A DNA stretch of 64,000 nucleotides, from positions 45,364 to 109,363 of the forward strand of contig CBDAQI010000011.1 in the NCBI GenBank assembly GCA_965198945.1, given 5' to 3'. The translations under genes and the position numbers were made by a program. Positions 2,499-9,437 of this stretch are shown in pieces. This DNA comes from Thermodesulfobacteriota bacterium (GTDB taxonomy: Bacteria; Desulfobacterota_D; UBA1144; Nemesobacterales; Mycalebacteriaceae). The notes beneath the pieces were generated by a model. It was not told the DNA's origin, did not search any database, and was given only the letters and a program-made list of their open reading frames with translations. The stretch's first letter is position 1. Every line of letters begins with the position of its first letter.

Positions 2499-2702
2499 TT
2501 ATTCTTCCCTTGAAGTCAGCATTGCAACCACAAGCACAATGTAGATTGCAAGAGAAATTCCCATGCTTACCCAGAGAGTTCTCGGCAGACCCAGCAGATA
2601 GGGTTCTGGGTTTCCTTGGGGAATCACCGCCGGAATAAAAGCCAGGGCTGTGAGAAAAATCGTGACGGGAATGAAAATTTTCCAGCGTTTTGAGTTCTTC
2701 AT
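2499..2702 (-). CDS. Small 2-TM accessory protein of the SSS transporter (DUF3311/YhdT-like)
   Basis: 67 aa, two hydrophobic helices, PYLLGLP motif, directly upstream of the SSS gene. Confidence 0.75.
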   Translation of the reverse strand: MKNSKRWKIFIPVTIFLTALAFIPAVIPQGNPEPYLLGLPRTLWVSMGISLAIYIVLVVAMLTSREE

Positions 2703-2775
2703 ATTAGCACTTTCCGCCGTCCGCTTTATAAGACTCTACATATTATGTAATAATGTTGCCGGGTTTTACAAACAA

Positions 2776-4110
2776 ATGAAACGGAAGAACGCCGGGAAAG
2801 AAACGCCTTTGCTTTACATTGAAACCTACGGGTGTCAGATGAATGAGTATGACTCCGACAGAATACGGGCGGCGCTTGGAGCCCGGAAAACACCCGACCC
2901 TTCTCTTGCCGATTACATAGTGGTGAACACCTGCGCCATCAGACAGAAAGCCGATCACAAAGCTTTCAGCAGCGTGGGAAAGTTCAAAAATCTGAAACAA
3001 AAAAATCCCGGAGTTGTAATAGGGATGGCGGGTTGCGTGGCTCAGTTATACGGGGATGCTCTGTTGAAAAAAAATCCGCATCTTGATTTTGTCATCGGTC
3101 CGCGTTCAATACCGAAACTCCCCGCTCTAATAGACGACATAGAGCGCTCAAGAGAAAATGAAAGCGCGGGCAGGTCGGAAACCTCTTTTGATGTTGAAGA
3201 GACTTTTGCAATCTCCCCGGCGCATGAAAAATCAAAAGTCGGCGCGTTTGTGTCCGTTCAGCAGGGCTGTAATAAGAAATGTGCCTACTGCATAGTGCCG
3301 ACCGTCAGAGGCGCGGAGATTAACAGGCCTCTGGAAGGAATAATGGAAGAAACACGGATGCTTGTGTCAAAAGGGGCGAAAGAAATAACTTTTGTCGGTC
3401 AAACGGTCAACTCCTGGAAGCATGACGGTAAAAGATTCGGAGACCTTCTGCATACGGCCGGGGAAATTGAAGGGCTTGAAAGGATTCGTTTTACAACCCC
3501 GTATCCGCGAGACATAACAAGGAAGATGGTTGAAGCGATGAGCGATGTTAAAAAGGTATGCCGCCACATCCACCTCCCGGTTCAGTCCGGTTCTGACAGG
3601 GTGTTGAAACAGATGAACCGCACTTATACCGTGAAATGGTATCTTGAGGCCGTTGACAGGCTCAGGGACTTTGTTCCCGACATAGCGGTTTCAACTGATG
3701 TGATAATCGGGTTTCCGGGAGAAACCGACGAGGATTTTGCCCGAACAATGAATTTGCTTGATAAAGTGCGTTTTGACAGCTCTTTTTCATTCAAGTTTTC
3801 CCCGCGTCCCGGAACTCCCGCCGCTGACTCCGCAGAGCGGGTCAGCCCTGATGTGGCGGAAAGCCGCCTCTCCGTTTTTCAGGAAAGGCAGAGAGAGATT
3901 ACTCTTGAAAGCAACCGTGAAAGAGAGGGCAGGGAAGAGGAAGTGCTTGTGTCCGGAGAGGGCAGGCACGGAAGCGGCTGGATGACGGGACGAACAACAC
4001 ACAACAGAATAGTTAATTTCATCGGAGCCCCAAGCTTGACCGGAACTCTTGCGAAAGTGCTTGTTAAAGACGGCCTTCCCAATTCCCTTCGCGGGGAGCT
4101 TGTTTCGTGA
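2776..4110 (+). CDS. miaB: tRNA-2-methylthio-N6-dimethylallyladenosine synthase
   Basis: ETYGCQMNEYDS, NTCAIR, GCVAQ, radical SAM CNKKCAYC, C-terminal TRAM domain; start placed at ATG 2776. Confidence 0.95.
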   Translation: MKRKNAGKETPLLYIETYGCQMNEYDSDRIRAALGARKTPDPSLADYIVVNTCAIRQKADHKAFSSVGKFKNLKQKNPGVVIGMAGCVAQLYGDALLKKNPHLDFVIGPRSIPKLPALIDDIERSRENESAGRSETSFDVEETFAISPAHEKSKVGAFVSVQQGCNKKCAYCIVPTVRGAEINRPLEGIMEETRMLVSKGAKEITFVGQTVNSWKHDGKRFGDLLHTAGEIEGLERIRFTTPYPRDITRKMVEAMSDVKKVCRHIHLPVQSGSDRVLKQMNRTYTVKWYLEAVDRLRDFVPDIAVSTDVIIGFPGETDEDFARTMNLLDKVRFDSSFSFKFSPRPGTPAADSAERVSPDVAESRLSVFQERQREITLESNREREGREEEVLVSGEGRHGSGWMTGRTTHNRIVNFIGAPSLTGTLAKVLVKDGLPNSLRGELVS

Positions 4111-5072
4111 AAAAGACGGAAAAAACCGTCGCCCTTATAAGTCCGCGCGGTTTCTGCGCCGGTGTGGAGAGGGCCATAGCGATTGTTGAAAAAGTTTTGG
4201 AGAAGCATGGGCCTCCAATCTACGTCAAACATGAGATAGTTCACAACAAAACGGTTGTTGAAGATTTCAAAAGACGGGGCGTGATTTTTATTGAGAATCC
4301 GGGCGAAGTTCCCTCCGGGATGCCCATAGTTTATTCCGCCCACGGAGTTTCGCGTGCGGTTAGGCGTGCGGCTGAAGAAAGGGGTCTGGAAATATATGAC
4401 GCCACATGTCCTCTCGTTTCAAGGATTCACGCCGAAGTCTCGCGTTTGCGCTCAAATGGTTACGAAATTGTGATGATAGGGCACAGGGGTCATCCCGAAG
4501 TGGAGGGAACCCTCGGCCAGTCTGACGGTGGGATCCACCTTGTTGAAAATGAAAGTGATATAGCCGCGCTCAAAGTTAAAGACCCTTTGAAACTTGGATA
4601 TGTTACGCAGACCACCCTTTCCGTGGACGACACGCGGGCTCTTGTCAGCCTGCTCCGCGAAAAATTTCCCCATATACGCCTGCCCAAAAAAGACGATATT
4701 TGTTATGCGACGCAAAACCGCCAGGACGCGGTGAAAAAATGGGCCTCGGATTGTGATGTTGTTTTTGTGGTGGGCTCTGAAACAAGCTCTAACTCAAACC
4801 GTCTGAAAGAAGTCGCCCAGCTGCTCGGAGCGAGGGCTTATCTTGTGGACAGCGCGGAGGATATAGACCCGGAATGGCTCCGGGGAGTTAAAAAAATAGG
4901 CCTTACGGCCGGGGCTTCGGCTCCGGAAAGAATAGTGGAAAATACTGCGTCCCGTTTGCGCGGATGGATGGACGGGGCGGTTGTAAAAGAGTTGGAAGTG
5001 GTCAAAGAAGACGTTCATTTCAGTGTGCCGAAAACTCTTCTCCGCGATTCGGAATCTCTTAATCGTCCCTGA
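4107..5072 (+). CDS. ispH: 4-hydroxy-3-methylbut-2-enyl diphosphate reductase
   Basis: PRGFCAGVERAI, HEIVHN, DATCPLV, DICYATQNRQ, SSNSNRL, TAGASAP. Confidence 0.97.
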   Translation: MKKTEKTVALISPRGFCAGVERAIAIVEKVLEKHGPPIYVKHEIVHNKTVVEDFKRRGVIFIENPGEVPSGMPIVYSAHGVSRAVRRAAEERGLEIYDATCPLVSRIHAEVSRLRSNGYEIVMIGHRGHPEVEGTLGQSDGGIHLVENESDIAALKVKDPLKLGYVTQTTLSVDDTRALVSLLREKFPHIRLPKKDDICYATQNRQDAVKKWASDCDVVFVVGSETSSNSNRLKEVAQLLGARAYLVDSAEDIDPEWLRGVKKIGLTAGASAPERIVENTASRLRGWMDGAVVKELEVVKEDVHFSVPKTLLRDSESLNRP

Positions 5073-5084
5073 TAAAAAGTCTTT

Positions 5085-5113
5085 TTGACAAGCAACCGGA
5101 TTTTATTTATATT
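5085..5113 (+). promoter_or_regulatory. sigma70 promoter unit 1 upstream of glnK
   Basis: TTGACA-N17-TATATT. Confidence 0.8.
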
Positions 5114-5215
5114 AACGGCCCTGCCGGAAAAATTTATTCAACTAATTATTCAATTAATTAAAAAATTTCCGAAAATATTTTCCCCGTTTTTTCTTCGCCT
5201 CCGCCCGTTTTTTCT

Positions 5216-5244
5216 TTGACAAATGGCGAAACGGCATTTATCTT
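5216..5244 (+). promoter_or_regulatory. sigma70 promoter unit 2 upstream of glnK
   Basis: TTGACA-N17-TATCTT. Confidence 0.8.
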
Positions 5245-5382
5245 AAACGTCCCGCCAAAAATAATTAGTCTCTGAACTCTCAAAACCGGTCTGCGGAAAA
5301 GCCATAAAACTTTTTCCTCAAATAAAATCAGGGTTTTTTCCGCTTTGGTTTCAAATTTTTCCGCCGATTAACTTATTTCCTT

Positions 5383-5411
5383 TTGACAAATCGGAAGATT
5401 GCATTTATTTT
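5383..5411 (+). promoter_or_regulatory. sigma70 promoter unit 3 upstream of glnK
   Basis: TTGACA-N17-TATTTT. Confidence 0.75.
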
Positions 5412-5515
5412 AACGGTCCCACCGGAAAAACCGGCCCCGAAAAACCCCTGATAAAACAAGCGATTTTTGCCGGAATTACTTTCCTGTTTTTCTGAAAAAT
5501 TCCCGATTTTTTTCT

Positions 5516-5544
5516 TTGACAAGGTTTGAGGCTGTGTTTAGAAT
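5516..5544 (+). promoter_or_regulatory. sigma70 promoter unit 4 upstream of glnK
   Basis: TTGACA-N17-TAGAAT. Confidence 0.8.
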
Positions 5545-5607
5545 CGCCCCCCGTGAAAATGATTTCCGGAAAAATCAATTCAAAAAAAATATGAGGTGAT
5601 TTCTTAA

Positions 5608-5949
<342 letters not shown>

Positions 5950-5977: not shown

Positions 5978-7324
5978 ATGAACAAAAATCACGATTTGAT
6001 GAAAAATATCAAAATGGCGGTGAAAAAGGCGCCGAAAACTTTTTTGTTTTCTCTTGTAATTTTTGTCGCCGCGGCCGTTAACACATATGCCGCCCCGGAA
6101 ACCACGCCGGAAATGTTTACGGTTAACAACCTCTGGCTGCTTCTGGCCACAATTCTGGTCTTTATAATGCACCTTGGTTTTGCGGCTCTTGAAAGCGGCC
6201 TGACGAGATCAAAAAACACCGTCAACATACTTTTCAAAAATGTTTCGGTAATTACGATAGGTATCCTCACTTACGCTTTTTGCGGATTCAATCTTATGTA
6301 TCCGGGCTTTGCCGAAGGCGCTTCGGGCTTCTTAGGGTTTGCCGGATTTGGAATTTCCTCTCCCGACGGGGCGGCGGGTCTGATTGGATACGCGGACGGC
6401 AGTTATACTTATTTTGCGGACTTTATTTTTCAGGCCATGTTTGCCGCCACCGCAGCCACAATAGTTTCGGGAGCTGTTGCGGAAAGAATTAAACTGGGGA
6501 GTTTTCTTGTTTTTGCGGTTATTTATGTGGCTTTTGTATACCCGGTCGCAGGTTCATGGAAATGGGGCGGCGGATGGCTTGACGCAATGGGTTTTTACGA
6601 TTTTGCGGGTTCCACCATCGTCCACAGTGTCGGAGGATGGGGGGCACTTGTCGGCGCCTTAATGCTCGGGGCGAGGGTAGGAAAATATGTGGACGGAAAA
6701 GTCAGGGCTCTTCCCGGACACAGCCTGCCGCTTGCCACAATCGGGGTTTTTCTGCTCTGGTTCGGATGGTACGGGTTTAACGGCGGTTCGGTTCTTTCTG
6801 CTGATCCGGGTCTTGTTTCTCTTGTGTTTGTAACAACTTCACTCGCCGCGGCGGCGGGGGTTGTCGGAGCGATGGGCACAGCCTGGATCATAAACAAAAA
6901 ACCCGACCTTTCAATGATACTTAACGGCTCTCTCGCGGGCCTTGTGGGAATCACGGCCGGAGCCGATGTGATAAGTCCCGGAAACTCTTTTGTGGTGGGT
7001 TTAATTGCGGGAATTCTCGTTGTTCTGTCGGTAATTTTTATGGACAGAATCAAAATAGACGACCCGGTCGGGGCAATTTCGGTTCACTTGACATGCGGAA
7101 TCTGGGGAACTCTTGCCGTGGGAATTTTCAGCACAAACCCGGAACATACTTTCTTCAAGCAGATGGCGGGTGTGGTCGCATACGGGGTTTTCTGCACCGT
7201 CTTTGCGATACTGATTTTCTTCGCCGTCAAAACGGTAATGGGTCTGCGGGTTTCCAGAGAGGAAGAAATTACCGGACTTGATTTGGGTGAACATGGAATG
7301 GAAGCATATGATATTCAGAAATAA
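5978..7324 (+). CDS. amtB: Ammonium transporter
   Basis: FQAMFAATAATIVSGAVAER, DFAGSTIVH, WFGWYGFNGGS, DDPVGAISVH (both pore His present); RBS AAGGAG before ATG 5978. Confidence 0.96.
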   Translation: MNKNHDLMKNIKMAVKKAPKTFLFSLVIFVAAAVNTYAAPETTPEMFTVNNLWLLLATILVFIMHLGFAALESGLTRSKNTVNILFKNVSVITIGILTYAFCGFNLMYPGFAEGASGFLGFAGFGISSPDGAAGLIGYADGSYTYFADFIFQAMFAATAATIVSGAVAERIKLGSFLVFAVIYVAFVYPVAGSWKWGGGWLDAMGFYDFAGSTIVHSVGGWGALVGALMLGARVGKYVDGKVRALPGHSLPLATIGVFLLWFGWYGFNGGSVLSADPGLVSLVFVTTSLAAAAGVVGAMGTAWIINKKPDLSMILNGSLAGLVGITAGADVISPGNSFVVGLIAGILVVLSVIFMDRIKIDDPVGAISVHLTCGIWGTLAVGIFSTNPEHTFFKQMAGVVAYGVFCTVFAILIFFAVKTVMGLRVSREEEITGLDLGEHGMEAYDIQK

Positions 7325-7337
7325 TTTTAACTGAGTA

Positions 7338-7366
7338 TTAATTTCCCCGCCCGGGGAATTAAAAAA
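7338..7366 (+). terminator. Stem-loop between amtB and porin (possible terminator or mRNA stabiliser)
   Basis: ttaatttcccc-gccc-ggggaattaa followed by an A-run. Confidence 0.5.
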
Positions 7367-7397
7367 TAAGGGAATTACAAATAGGAGGTAATTAATT

Positions 7398-8756
7398 ATG
7401 AGAAAATTTCTCAACGGGCTTTTAATTGTTTTGAGTTTGCTGGTTGTTCCGCAGCTCGGCGCGCCGGCCGCAAAGGCGGATGTTCCAATGACTCAGTTTG
7501 TGGAGGGCGTTAATATTGGAGTGTCGCTTGACACCACATACCAGTATGTCTTCAATTGCGATAAGGAGAAGGTTTCGGAATGTCCGGCCGAAAGGGGTCT
7601 TTATGCCGAACACAACGACTTCTCAATAGACGCCTTCACACTCTCTCTTGAAAAAGAGGCAGATGGCGCCGGCGTATCTCCGATGGAGAAGATCGGTTTC
7701 AGGGCGGACATTCTTTTCGGAGAGCAGGCTGAGTATCTCGGTTTCGGGTTCAACTCTGACGGAGACGGTTCGGTCAGCCCCTATCAGGCATATGTAAGCG
7801 TTGCTCCTTCGGAGAATTTCGGTATCATCGCGGGGCAGTTCACAACGCTTGCGGGCTGGGAGCTTATAGAAGCCAAGAACAACACCAACATCACCAGAGG
7901 TCTTCTGTTCTACAGAATCCCGTTTGCCCACTCGGGAGTCCGCGCTTCATATAATGCGGGGGCGTTTGACCTGACCTTCGGCATAAGCAATGACTGGGAC
8001 GCGGTTGACGATGTGAATGACGGAAAGACTTTTGAGTTTCAAGCGGCTTATTCGCATTCGTCGGAAACCGGGTTTATAAACGATCTGTGGGCCGGAGCAA
8101 CCGTTTATGTGGGCAAGAGTGAATTTCTGGAGAATCGTTTTTTGGAAACCAGTGTGTTTGATGCGGAGGGGGACGGCGGTAATGCTATTGTGGAAAACAG
8201 GAAACCGGTTGTTAAAGAGAACGATGTGGCGGTGGAAGAGATTTTCAGGACGGGCGCTGATGTTGCAATACCCCATAAAAACAACACGCGTACTCTCTTA
8301 ACGCTTGTTACAAGCGTTACGTCCGGGAAATTCACATTTGTAGGAGATGCGGAGTTTACATGGGTGCAAGACGGAGTTGCAAAGGGGGTATACACAAAGT
8401 TTGACAGCGACAATCCGCGGACGACGACCGTTGAGACTTCGTTACTGACCGGATTGAAATACGAGAACTTCTTCCGCTGGGGAGTCGGAGGATACGCAAT
8501 TTATCAGCCGAACTCCGATATGACCCTTTCCCTCAGGGCGGAATACGTTGATGACTCCGATACGACGAATGCGGTGAAACTTTTTGAAATAACGCCGACC
8601 GTGGGATGGAAGCCTTTTGGCGAAACCGAAATGGGAACTCTGGAAACCCGTTTTGAATACCGTATGGACAGAGCCGATATCAAATACTTTCGGAGCGACA
8701 GCGGCCTGAAGAAAACACAGCACGCGCTGATTTTTCAGCTTCTGTATTTCATATAG
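7398..8756 (+). CDS. Putative outer-membrane beta-barrel porin (BBP2/DUF1597-like)
   Basis: Signal peptide; GFRADILFG, YQAYV, GQFTTLAGWELIE..NTNITR, PFAHSGVR, LRAEY, RFEYRMD motifs; aromatic C-terminus. Confidence 0.8.
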   Translation: MRKFLNGLLIVLSLLVVPQLGAPAAKADVPMTQFVEGVNIGVSLDTTYQYVFNCDKEKVSECPAERGLYAEHNDFSIDAFTLSLEKEADGAGVSPMEKIGFRADILFGEQAEYLGFGFNSDGDGSVSPYQAYVSVAPSENFGIIAGQFTTLAGWELIEAKNNTNITRGLLFYRIPFAHSGVRASYNAGAFDLTFGISNDWDAVDDVNDGKTFEFQAAYSHSSETGFINDLWAGATVYVGKSEFLENRFLETSVFDAEGDGGNAIVENRKPVVKENDVAVEEIFRTGADVAIPHKNNTRTLLTLVTSVTSGKFTFVGDAEFTWVQDGVAKGVYTKFDSDNPRTTTVETSLLTGLKYENFFRWGVGGYAIYQPNSDMTLSLRAEYVDDSDTTNAVKLFEITPTVGWKPFGETEMGTLETRFEYRMDRADIKYFRSDSGLKKTQHALIFQLLYFI

Positions 8757-8797: not shown

Positions 8798-8836
8798 GAA
8801 AAAGCCGACCCCGATTTATTTGCGGTCGGCTTTTTC
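8798..8836 (+). terminator. Rho-independent terminator (bidirectional)
   Basis: gaaaaagccgacc...ggtcggctttttc inverted repeat. Confidence 0.85.
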
Positions 8837-8858
8837 TATTGTAAAATGAAACTTTCGC

Positions 8859-8977: not shown

Positions 8978-9023
8978 TGGAAAGTTAAGTTATTTTATTT
9001 AACAAAATTTGAGTGTTTTTGTT

Positions 9024-9437
9024 ATGACTTTTGGAGACTATCTGAGAGCAAAGCGCAAGCAGAGAGGCATAACCCAGGGCGCGCTCGCGCACTACCTGGA
9101 TGTTTCAAAGGTGTATATACACCAGCTTGAGACCGGCAAGGCCGACTCGCCTTCACGCGAAAGGTGCCACCAGATTGCGCAGTATCTGCGTGTAAGCGTT
9201 GAGGAAATATGGAATCTCTCCAGGCGTGAAAAGCTGCACAAGTTTATTGAAAAAGAGCTTATTGGTGAGAAAGATCTTGAGATACTCACCGATGAGGAGA
9301 GATATCTTGTCAAGTTATACAGGGTTCTTGATGACGAGGTAAAAAAGGACTTCAATGGGATGGTCTTTATGTTGTTCAAGCATTATGAGAACTCTGAGGC
9401 TAAAAAGATACTTGAAGAATTTCTTAAATGCGCCTGA
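9024..9437 (+). CDS. XRE-family helix-turn-helix transcriptional regulator
   Basis: FGDYLRAKRKQRGITQGALAHYLDVSKVYIHQLETG HTH_3 pattern; C-terminal LTDEERYLVKLYRVL. Confidence 0.88.
   Translation: MTFGDYLRAKRKQRGITQGALAHYLDVSKVYIHQLETGKADSPSRERCHQIAQYLRVSVEEIWNLSRREKLHKFIEKELIGEKDLEILTDEERYLVKLYRVLDDEVKKDFNGMVFMLFKHYENSEAKKILEEFLKCA

What the first reader, a model, noticed from the sequence alone, without database searches (positions are those of the whole stretch)
5080..5570. Four tandem consensus sigma70 promoter units driving glnK-amtB-porin
Seen: perfect TTGACA at 5085, 5216, 5383 and 5516 (spacing 131, 167, 133 bp). Each has exactly 17 bp to a TAnnnT box (TATATT, TATCTT, TATTTT, TAGAAT), a T-rich upstream tract, and a similar GC-rich downstream motif (aacggccctgccggaaaaa, aaacgtcccgccaaaaa, aacggtcccaccggaaaaa, cgccccccgtgaaaa). 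The spacers have diverged while the boxes are kept, which suggests selection on every copy. Known: glnK-amtB is usually under sigma54/NtrC or a dedicated N regulator, while tandem promoters with GC-rich discriminators are typical of rRNA operons. Inference: a promoter-multiplication amplifier, possibly ppGpp-sensitive, for ammonium uptake, or an array of short promoter-led RNAs.
Basis: partly seen in the sequence, partly recalled or inferred. Interest (0 to 1): 0.8.

Follow-up and report, generated by a model that had tools for sequence, protein, structure and literature searches.

The report
Four stacked promoters before ammonium-uptake genes
In one small-genome Dadabacteria species with no detectable sigma-54 nitrogen switch, four textbook housekeeping-promoter sequences, three of them clear copies of each other, sit in a row before the ammonium-transporter genes and likely keep those genes strongly switched on, a variant of the promoter stacking known from ribosomal RNA operons.

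Summary
TTGACA-17-TAnnnT occurs at 5085, 5216, 5383 and 5516. These are 4 of only 26 such sites in the 1.39-Mb genome and the only cluster of more than two perfect sites (P about 4e-5). Units 1-3 are diverged copies of one promoter whose boxes stayed invariant. Unit 4 differs downstream and is the only one with a fully GC discriminator. The array is species-specific: relatives with ispH next to glnK have a 77-159-bp gap, against 535 bp here. The genus lacks rpoN and sigma-54 activators (0 of 6 genomes; 53 and 54 of 55 elsewhere in the order), while outgroup amtB genes carry sigma-54 boxes (26 of 26). GlnD and GlnE remain. Best reading (inferred; no RNA data): duplicated sigma-70 promoters give high constitutive glnK-amtB-porin transcription, with control left to P-II. 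ppGpp control and a small-RNA array are poorly supported. The kind is known (mycobacterial rrnA has up to five promoters), and the scan noted a similar stack before 23S rRNA in another genome (e1-1115427). The setting is new.

The parts
5085..5133 (+). Promoter unit 1: -35 TTGACA (5085-5090), 17 bp, -10 TATATT (5108-5113), shared downstream motif (5114-5133)
5216..5264 (+). Promoter unit 2: -35 TTGACA (5216-5221), -10 TATCTT (5239-5244), more diverged downstream motif
5383..5431 (+). Promoter unit 3: -35 TTGACA (5383-5388), -10 TATTTT (5406-5411), downstream motif 80% identical to unit 1
5516..5560 (+). Promoter unit 4 (gene-proximal): -35 TTGACA, -10 TAGAAT (5539-5544), all-GC discriminator. 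Only loosely related to units 1-3; inferred to be the oldest copy or the original promoter
5592..5599 (+). Shine-Dalgarno-like sequence before glnK (one of only two SD-like 4-mers in the gap)
5603..5942 (+). 340-bp stretch identical to the second P-II gene on contig C6 (divergent rnc-like gene upstream, glnA downstream)
5608..5949 (+). glnK/glnB P-II protein, 113 aa
5933..7324 (+). amtB ammonium transporter (longest ORF; a start at 5978 after a GGAG is also possible)
7398..8756 (+). Outer-membrane beta-barrel porin, BBP2/OmpL-like (PF07642)
8811..8839 (+). Terminator-like hairpin and T-run after the porin; likely end of the operon
4107..5072 (+). ispH, upstream neighbour (after miaB 2650-4110); no terminator-like site found between it and unit 1

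Best explanation
This is a stack of four sigma-70 consensus promoter sequences, three of them diverged copies of one roughly 130-bp unit, which likely arose by old tandem duplication in this species and likely give high, largely constitutive transcription of glnK-amtB-porin in a genus with no detectable sigma-54 or activator. Shown: the four boxes, the homology of units 1-3, the absence of the array in relatives, the absence of rpoN and NtrC-type activators in the genomes searched, sigma-54-type boxes at outgroup amtB and glnB-glnA, and retained GlnD and GlnE. Inferred: (1) the ancestor lost sigma-54/NtrC and a single sigma-70 promoter took over; (2) in this lineage the promoter segment was duplicated more than once; (3) selection kept the polymerase-contact core (-35 to about +14) and let the spacers drift; (4) the four starts add up less than additively, because polymerases from upstream units pass through downstream ones; (5) nitrogen-responsive control now acts mainly on the proteins (GlnD uridylylates P-II, which gates AmtB; established for proteobacteria, recalled).
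For: Cluster statistics. Homology: mean anchored identity outside the boxes is 0.53 for units 1-3 (0 of 1,540 trios of the other 22 promoters reach it) and 0.45 for all four (0 of 7,315 quartets); background 0.27. Box invariance: 9 of 9 against 20 of 55 other positions. All four face glnK; a relaxed scan (-35 at 4 of 6 or better) finds no other site on either strand of the gap, and there is no terminator between them. Synteny ispH-glnK in G001, G002 and G003 has gaps of 82, 159 and 77 bp; G003 has one TTGACA-16-TACATT there. rpoN 0 of 6 in the genus against 53 of 55 in other families; activators at E<=1e-30 0 of 6 against 54 of 55. A -24/-12-type box precedes 26 of 26 outgroup amtB loci and 22 of 24 outgroup glnB-glnA loci, and is absent from this gap. 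GlnD 6 of 6 and GlnE 6 of 6 in the genus. Synthetic tandem tac promoters increase output up to five copies (PMC3293061, abstract).
Against: No expression data were available, so promoter use is untested. Non-overlapping tandem promoters can attenuate each other through polymerase collisions (PMC11339919, abstract and introduction), so four copies need not mean more mRNA. The leader is C-rich over G (92:53) and Rho is present, so upstream transcripts could be terminated early. Four sister species keep amtB without a comparable array and one has no amtB match, so the array is not needed to replace sigma-54. The box-invariance test is biased because the region was found through its boxes. The link from the array to amtB crosses a 340-bp repeat at which contigs of two runs break; it rests on synteny and on two low-depth contigs.
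Confidence: 0.6

Rival explanations
1. Buffer or attenuator rather than amplifier: all units fire, but collisions and Rho-dependent termination in the long untranslated C-rich leader cap the output, so unit 4 supplies most of the mRNA and units 1-3 add little.
For: Leader C:G is 92:53; rho is present in 5 of 5 genomes. There is no convincing leader ORF with a ribosome-binding site. Attenuation is documented for synthetic tandem promoters (PMC11339919), and unequal use for mycobacterial P1/PCL1 (PMC10218544, passages).
Against: It does not explain why three upstream copies would keep perfect -35 boxes. I ran no control for C/G skew against other intergenic regions.
Confidence: 0.14
2. Neutral relic: a chance tandem duplication whose copies are decaying, with intact boxes noticed only because the search looked for them.
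For: Present in 1 of 6 genus genomes and not matched in the other 100 genomes of the order at 124-154-bp spacing. No strain variation was available to test selection (one search shows no variants).
Against: The spacers are down to 25-40% identity while no box position differs in four copies (9 of 9 against 8 of 55 invariant). No decayed unit is visible in the gap.
Confidence: 0.1
3. Array of short promoter-led RNAs, like NsiR1: each unit makes its own roughly 100-nt RNA with a shared 5' end.
For: The 20 nt after the -10 box are the best conserved non-box part of units 1-3 (60-80% pairwise; 11 of 20 invariant). Units 1-3 end in T-runs before the next -35. NsiR1 shows that such arrays exist in nitrogen biology (PMC4030482, passages).
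Against: No terminator hairpins; fold z-scores +0.4, -1.45, -1.07 and -0.16; no Rfam match near a gathering score; positions 21-60 after the -10 box are only 25-40% alike; no conservation in relatives.
Confidence: 0.07
4. Stringent-response dial: the units differ in discriminator so that ppGpp/DksA or NTP levels shift use among them, replacing NtrC as the nitrogen signal.
For: A long RelA/SpoT (717-aa frame), a DksA-like protein with a DxxDxA tip, and omega beginning MAR (the importance of these motifs is recalled from E. coli) are present. Discriminator GC content is graded 6, 4, 5, 8 of 8.
Against: The DksA match is below the family cut-off. Stable-RNA promoters of this genome lack GC-rich discriminators. 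GC-rich discriminators predict repression under starvation (PMC8422995).
Confidence: 0.06
5. Mis-phasing or real promoter swapping: the array belongs, at least in some cells, to glnK-glnA, through the identical 340-bp glnK copies.
For: The two P-II genes are identical over 340 bp, and the assembly graph forks on both sides of the repeat in X2 and X4.
Against: Relatives show ispH-glnK-amtB (G002, G003) and rnc-like gene/glnK-glnA (G004, G005), matching the present assembly. An X1 contig (4300-6900) and an X3 contig (5161-6860) run through the repeat into amtB (depth about 2).
Confidence: 0.04

Closest known systems
Mycobacterial rrnA hypervariable multiple promoter region (2 promoters in M. tuberculosis, 5 in M. 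chelonae; PMC10218544, passages)
   Same: Several tandem housekeeping promoters, attributed to promoter duplication, whose number varies between related species, in front of one operon
   Different: Here the operon encodes proteins for ammonium uptake, not rRNA. This genome's rRNA operon has one perfect promoter. Starts are not mapped here.
Synthetic tandem core-tac promoter clusters (PMC3293061, abstract) and non-overlapping tandem promoters (PMC11339919, abstract and introduction)
   Same: Head-to-tail sigma-70 promoters driving one gene; they give the two possible outcomes, stepwise gain up to five copies or attenuation by collisions
   Different: Engineered, with identical or unrelated units; this one is natural and old, with diverged spacers
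NsiR1 tandem array of heterocyst-forming cyanobacteria (12 copies, each with its own promoter; PMC4030482, passages)
   Same: Tandem units, each with its own promoter, in a nitrogen context
   Different: NsiR1 is a 60-nt RNA found across heterocystous genomes with a HetR-dependent promoter. Here the conserved part is the sigma-70 core, the RNA body is not conserved, and the array is in one species.
sigma-54/NtrC-controlled glnK-amtB (enterobacterial model, recalled) and the outgroup Dadabacteria loci
   Same: Same genes, with GlnD and GlnE retained
   Different: No rpoN, no activator, no -24/-12 box and no NtrC-like palindrome in this gap
Poribacteria tandem promoter stack before 23S rRNA (earlier scan note e1-1115427, unchecked)
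   Same: Repeat-borne stack of consensus sigma-70 promoters within about 430 bp
   Different: It precedes rRNA and has more units, with decayed copies

Membership tests
Duplicated tandem sigma-70 promoter array (rrnA HMPR-like) | Several consensus -35/-10 pairs at correct spacing, same strand, before one operon | tested here: met
Duplicated tandem sigma-70 promoter array (rrnA HMPR-like) | Units homologous beyond the boxes (origin by duplication) | tested here: met
   Units 1-3 clearly; unit 4 only loosely
Duplicated tandem sigma-70 promoter array (rrnA HMPR-like) | Promoter number differs among related species | tested here: met
   77-159-bp gaps without an array in G001-G003
Duplicated tandem sigma-70 promoter array (rrnA HMPR-like) | Each promoter has a mapped start and reads into the operon | not testable with these tools
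   Needs TSS mapping
rRNA-operon promoters | Drives rRNA or tRNA | tested here: not met
   Downstream genes are glnK, amtB and a porin; no tRNA or Rfam family in the gap
Stringently controlled (ppGpp/DksA-repressed) promoters | GC-rich discriminator at each promoter | tested here: inconclusive
   Met by unit 4 (8 of 8); units 1-3 are within the range of other promoters
Stringently controlled (ppGpp/DksA-repressed) promoters | RSH, DksA and omega binding determinants present | tested here: met
   (below cut-off); motif significance recalled
Stringently controlled (ppGpp/DksA-repressed) promoters | Measured response to ppGpp | not testable with these tools
   Needs in vitro transcription
NsiR1-like tandem sRNA array | Conserved RNA body in each unit | tested here: not met
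   25-40% identity beyond 20 nt after the -10 box
NsiR1-like tandem sRNA array | Terminator or stable structure per unit | tested here: not met
sigma-54/NtrC regulon | rpoN, an activator and a -24/-12 box | tested here: not met
NrpR-repressed nitrogen promoters | NrpR gene and operator enrichment | tested here: not met
   PF01995 0 of 5 with controls ringing; 2 near-matches to the recalled operator, p=0.16 against dinucleotide shuffles
ANTAR antitermination leaders | ANTAR protein in the genome | tested here: inconclusive
   0 of 6, but no control genome rang
ANTAR antitermination leaders | Paired hexaloop hairpins overlapping a terminator | tested here: not met
   One weak candidate inside the unit-4 promoter, upstream of its start; no terminator

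The most novel reading that the evidence does not exclude
Promoter dosage has replaced an enhancer: after losing sigma-54/NtrC, this streamlined bacterium rebuilt high-level, tunable nitrogen-uptake expression with no transcription factor. It did so by stacking sigma-70 promoters with different start regions (units 1-3 against unit 4) that respond differently to ppGpp or NTP pools, and the stack can be swapped between amtB and glnA through two identical glnK genes.
Probability: 0.1. Interest if true: 0.72.

Novelty: new variant of a known kind. Interest (0 to 1): 0.42.

Why it matters
If the four units are active, this is a natural case of expression raised by promoter copy number at a protein-coding nutrient-uptake operon. 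It sits in a genus where the loss of sigma-54/NtrC can be traced against about 55 relatives that kept it. That makes a small, synthesizable 535-bp test of two open points: whether natural tandem promoters add up or interfere, and how streamlined genomes re-wire nitrogen genes after losing their regulators. The limits are that promoter stacking itself is known, the array is in one uncultured species, and nothing is yet measured.

Tried and rejected
Run search: 4 holders, no RNA holder listed, so nothing can be said on expression. Dispersed repeat or mobile element: the 535-bp gap has no real second copy in its genome (best other hit 31 bp, E 6e-4), and the motif profile's other hits lack promoter boxes. 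Phage origin: a degenerate pattern for units 1 and 3 found 0 matches in viral contigs (exact match only, so a weak test). Decayed promoter-tRNA cassettes: considered because the other close promoter pairs in the genus flank tRNA genes, but ARAGORN and Rfam find nothing in the gap. Leader peptides: the short ORFs in the gap differ between units and lack SD sites. NrpR operators: p=0.007 with mononucleotide shuffles fell to 0.16 with dinucleotide shuffles, and there is no NrpR gene. ANTAR: not supported. Closer strains with intermediate copy number: the metagenome scan gave 4 loci and the genome scan 24; of these 28, only L056 and L060 have the genus layout, and neither has an array. The strict sigma-54 pattern matched only 2 of 26 outgroup amtB loci; a relaxed pattern chosen after inspecting sequences matched 26 of 26, and neither it nor the NtrC-like pattern had a chance control. 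Literature searches for this locus or arrangement listed no paper describing it; the library lacks most subscription journals, and no supplements were read. Contig support for the pairing of flanks at the second glnK locus remains open.

Full report
OBSERVATION. The window is part of a 1.387-Mb, 95%-complete genome. Records that carry relatives of its porin are titled Candidatus Dadabacteria or Thermodesulfobacteriota MAGs, which places the lineage. The gene order is miaB, ispH, a 535-bp gap, glnK, amtB, a BBP2 porin, tRNA-Phe and an HTH gene. The gap holds four TTGACA-17-TAnnnT sites, at 5085, 5216, 5383 and 5516. A relaxed scan finds no other site on either strand of the gap.

IS IT MORE THAN CHANCE? 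The genome has 26 such sites. Off-spacer controls give 6-16 and the reversed pattern gives 11, so perhaps 15 are real promoters. Among 67 perfect -35 sites with 16-18-bp spacers, cluster sizes are 59 singles, 2 pairs and this one set of four. With one -35 mismatch allowed, one other loose set of four appears around a tRNA-Ile gene. None of 20,000 dinucleotide shuffles gave three full patterns, and random placement gave four within 460 bp in 8 of 200,000 trials. Contigs from 4 runs (2 samples, 1 study, possibly the source) reproduce the array with no differences; one X2 contig spans 4300-5632 at depth 13.7.

ANATOMY. Outside the nine fixed box positions, the units share on average 45% identity from -15 to +20, against 27% among the other 22 sites; none of 7,315 quartets reaches this. 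Units 1-3 share 53%, and none of 1,540 trios reaches this. Conservation peaks in the 20 nt after the -10 box (60-80% among units 1-3) and falls to 25-40% beyond. The long spacers align only weakly (shuffle p 0.004-0.05). A profile from two of units 1-3 ranks the third 8th, 696th or 3rd of 2.77 million positions, whereas unit 4 ranks 582,876th; it aligns only with a 3-nt shift. So units 1-3 are clear paralogues and unit 4 is older or separate. In units 1-3, 9 of 9 box positions are invariant against 20 of 55 others (Fisher 4e-4); over all four units the figures are 9 of 9 against 8 of 55. This suggests selection, with the caveat that the region was found through its boxes.

COMPARATIVE CONTEXT. 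The family sampled has one genus with five other genomes. G001, G002 and G003 keep ispH-glnK with gaps of 82, 159 and 77 bp. G004 joins ispH directly to amtB. G005 has glnK-amtB-porin away from ispH. G001 has no amtB match. G003 has one TTGACA promoter there. By eye, G004 and G005 each have one near-consensus promoter and G002 possibly two. A search of 101 genomes of the order for two perfect promoters 124-154 bp apart gave 9 matches in 7 genomes: two are this array, one is the tRNA-Gly pair of this genome, five others show tRNA-like starts in the printed text, and one (G053) was not examined. The array is therefore private to this species among those searched.

THE REGULATORY BACKGROUND. rpoN was found in 0 of 6 genus genomes (94-98% complete, three of them single contigs) and in 53 of 55 others in the order. 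Sigma-54 activators were found in 0 of 6 against 54 of 55; the weak hits (E 6e-10 or weaker, partial) look like cross-matches to other AAA ATPases (not examined). Outgroup amtB loci have a -24/-12-type box in 26 of 26 (relaxed pattern; L056 and L060 were left out as genus-type loci) and an NtrC-like palindrome 150-240 bp upstream in 25 of 26. Outgroup glnB-glnA loci have a sigma-54 box in 22 of 24. These patterns are recalled, loose and uncontrolled, and the loci are kin. NrpR was not found and the ANTAR search was inconclusive. GlnD and GlnE are kept in 6 of 6. The genus has thus moved its nitrogen genes from sigma-54 to sigma-70 promoters (inference) while keeping post-translational control.

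MECHANISM. Most likely (0.6), the single replacement promoter region was duplicated in this species and the copies were kept because they raise constitutive transcription of the P-II, transporter and porin genes, up to a terminator-like site at 8811. Synthetic tandem promoters gain strength up to five copies (PMC3293061, abstract), but can also attenuate by collisions (PMC11339919, abstract and introduction), so a sub-additive gain is expected. Against this reading: no expression data, sister species manage without an array, and the C-rich untranslated leader with Rho present could waste upstream starts. For ppGpp control, the parts exist. However, the perfect-consensus promoters before the rRNA operon and tRNA-Ile/Gly genes have only 3-4 GC of 8 in the discriminator, and GC-rich discriminators go with repression by ppGpp (PMC8422995, passages). 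A small-RNA array lacks terminators, structure, Rfam matches and a conserved body.

A CAVEAT ON LINKAGE. A second P-II gene, before glnA on contig C6, is identical to this one over 340 bp. Contigs of X2 and X4 fork at exactly 5603 and 5942, while low-depth X1 and X3 contigs pass through into amtB. Synteny in relatives supports the assembled pairing, but it is not proven by spanning reads.

COMPARISON WITH WHAT IS KNOWN. It works like the mycobacterial rrnA multiple-promoter region, where duplication has given two to five tandem promoters (PMC10218544, passages). It meets the sequence features of a duplicated tandem promoter array, but is not an rRNA promoter and has no mapped starts. It resembles NsiR1 (PMC4030482, passages) only in layout. 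A Dadabacteria genomics paper has no occurrence of 'ammonium', 'promoter' or 'amt' in its main text (PMC8115339, term search and passages). Four searches listed no description of this arrangement; subscription journals and supplements were not covered. The scan noted a similar stack before 23S rRNA in Poribacteria (e1-1115427, unchecked).

VERDICT. A real, old, species-specific tandem promoter array: a new variant of a known kind, made more interesting by the genus-wide loss of sigma-54. Interest 0.42.

Noticed in passing
window 5603-5942 and G000:C6:18958-19297: The two P-II genes (before amtB and before glnA) are identical over 340 bp. In G005 its own two copies are 330 of 336 alike, while orthologues between species are 233-274 of 336 alike. 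This points to concerted evolution by gene conversion, or to independent recent duplications, in two species.
   Followed up: partly
G001-G005 glnK, amtB and glnA loci (L039-L044, L084-L088): The single ancestral glnB-glnA P-II gene appears to have been copied in front of amtB in this genus and then lost differentially: beside ispH/amtB only (G002, G003; G001 without amtB), beside glnA only (G004), or both (G000, G005). Outgroup amtB loci have no adjacent P-II gene.
   Followed up: partly
whole genus g1; also G007: No rpoN and no sigma-54 activator were found in any of 6 genus genomes. G007 (another family, 99% complete) also lacks both, suggesting an independent loss. Family f8 genomes of genus g8 keep exactly one activator.
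   Followed up: partly
window 7335-7370: Strong GC hairpin between amtB and the porin gene, followed by A's rather than T's; it may stabilise the upstream mRNA or act as a pause (seen in the printout, not tested).
   Followed up: no
G000:C4:88754-88930 (minus strand): Two tRNA-Gly genes, each with its own perfect sigma-70 promoter 148 bp apart; a matching pair appears in 4 of 5 sister genomes.
   Followed up: partly
window 9009-9437: XRE-type HTH gene ahead of a pilM/pilQ-like cluster, about 90% identical in three sister genomes and 54-64% in outgroup loci, which is unusually conserved for a regulator (the pil names are my labels, not tested).
   Followed up: no
L061 and L078: One outgroup record carries two separate amtB-porin loci about 40 kb apart, each with a sigma-54-type box.
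   Followed up: no
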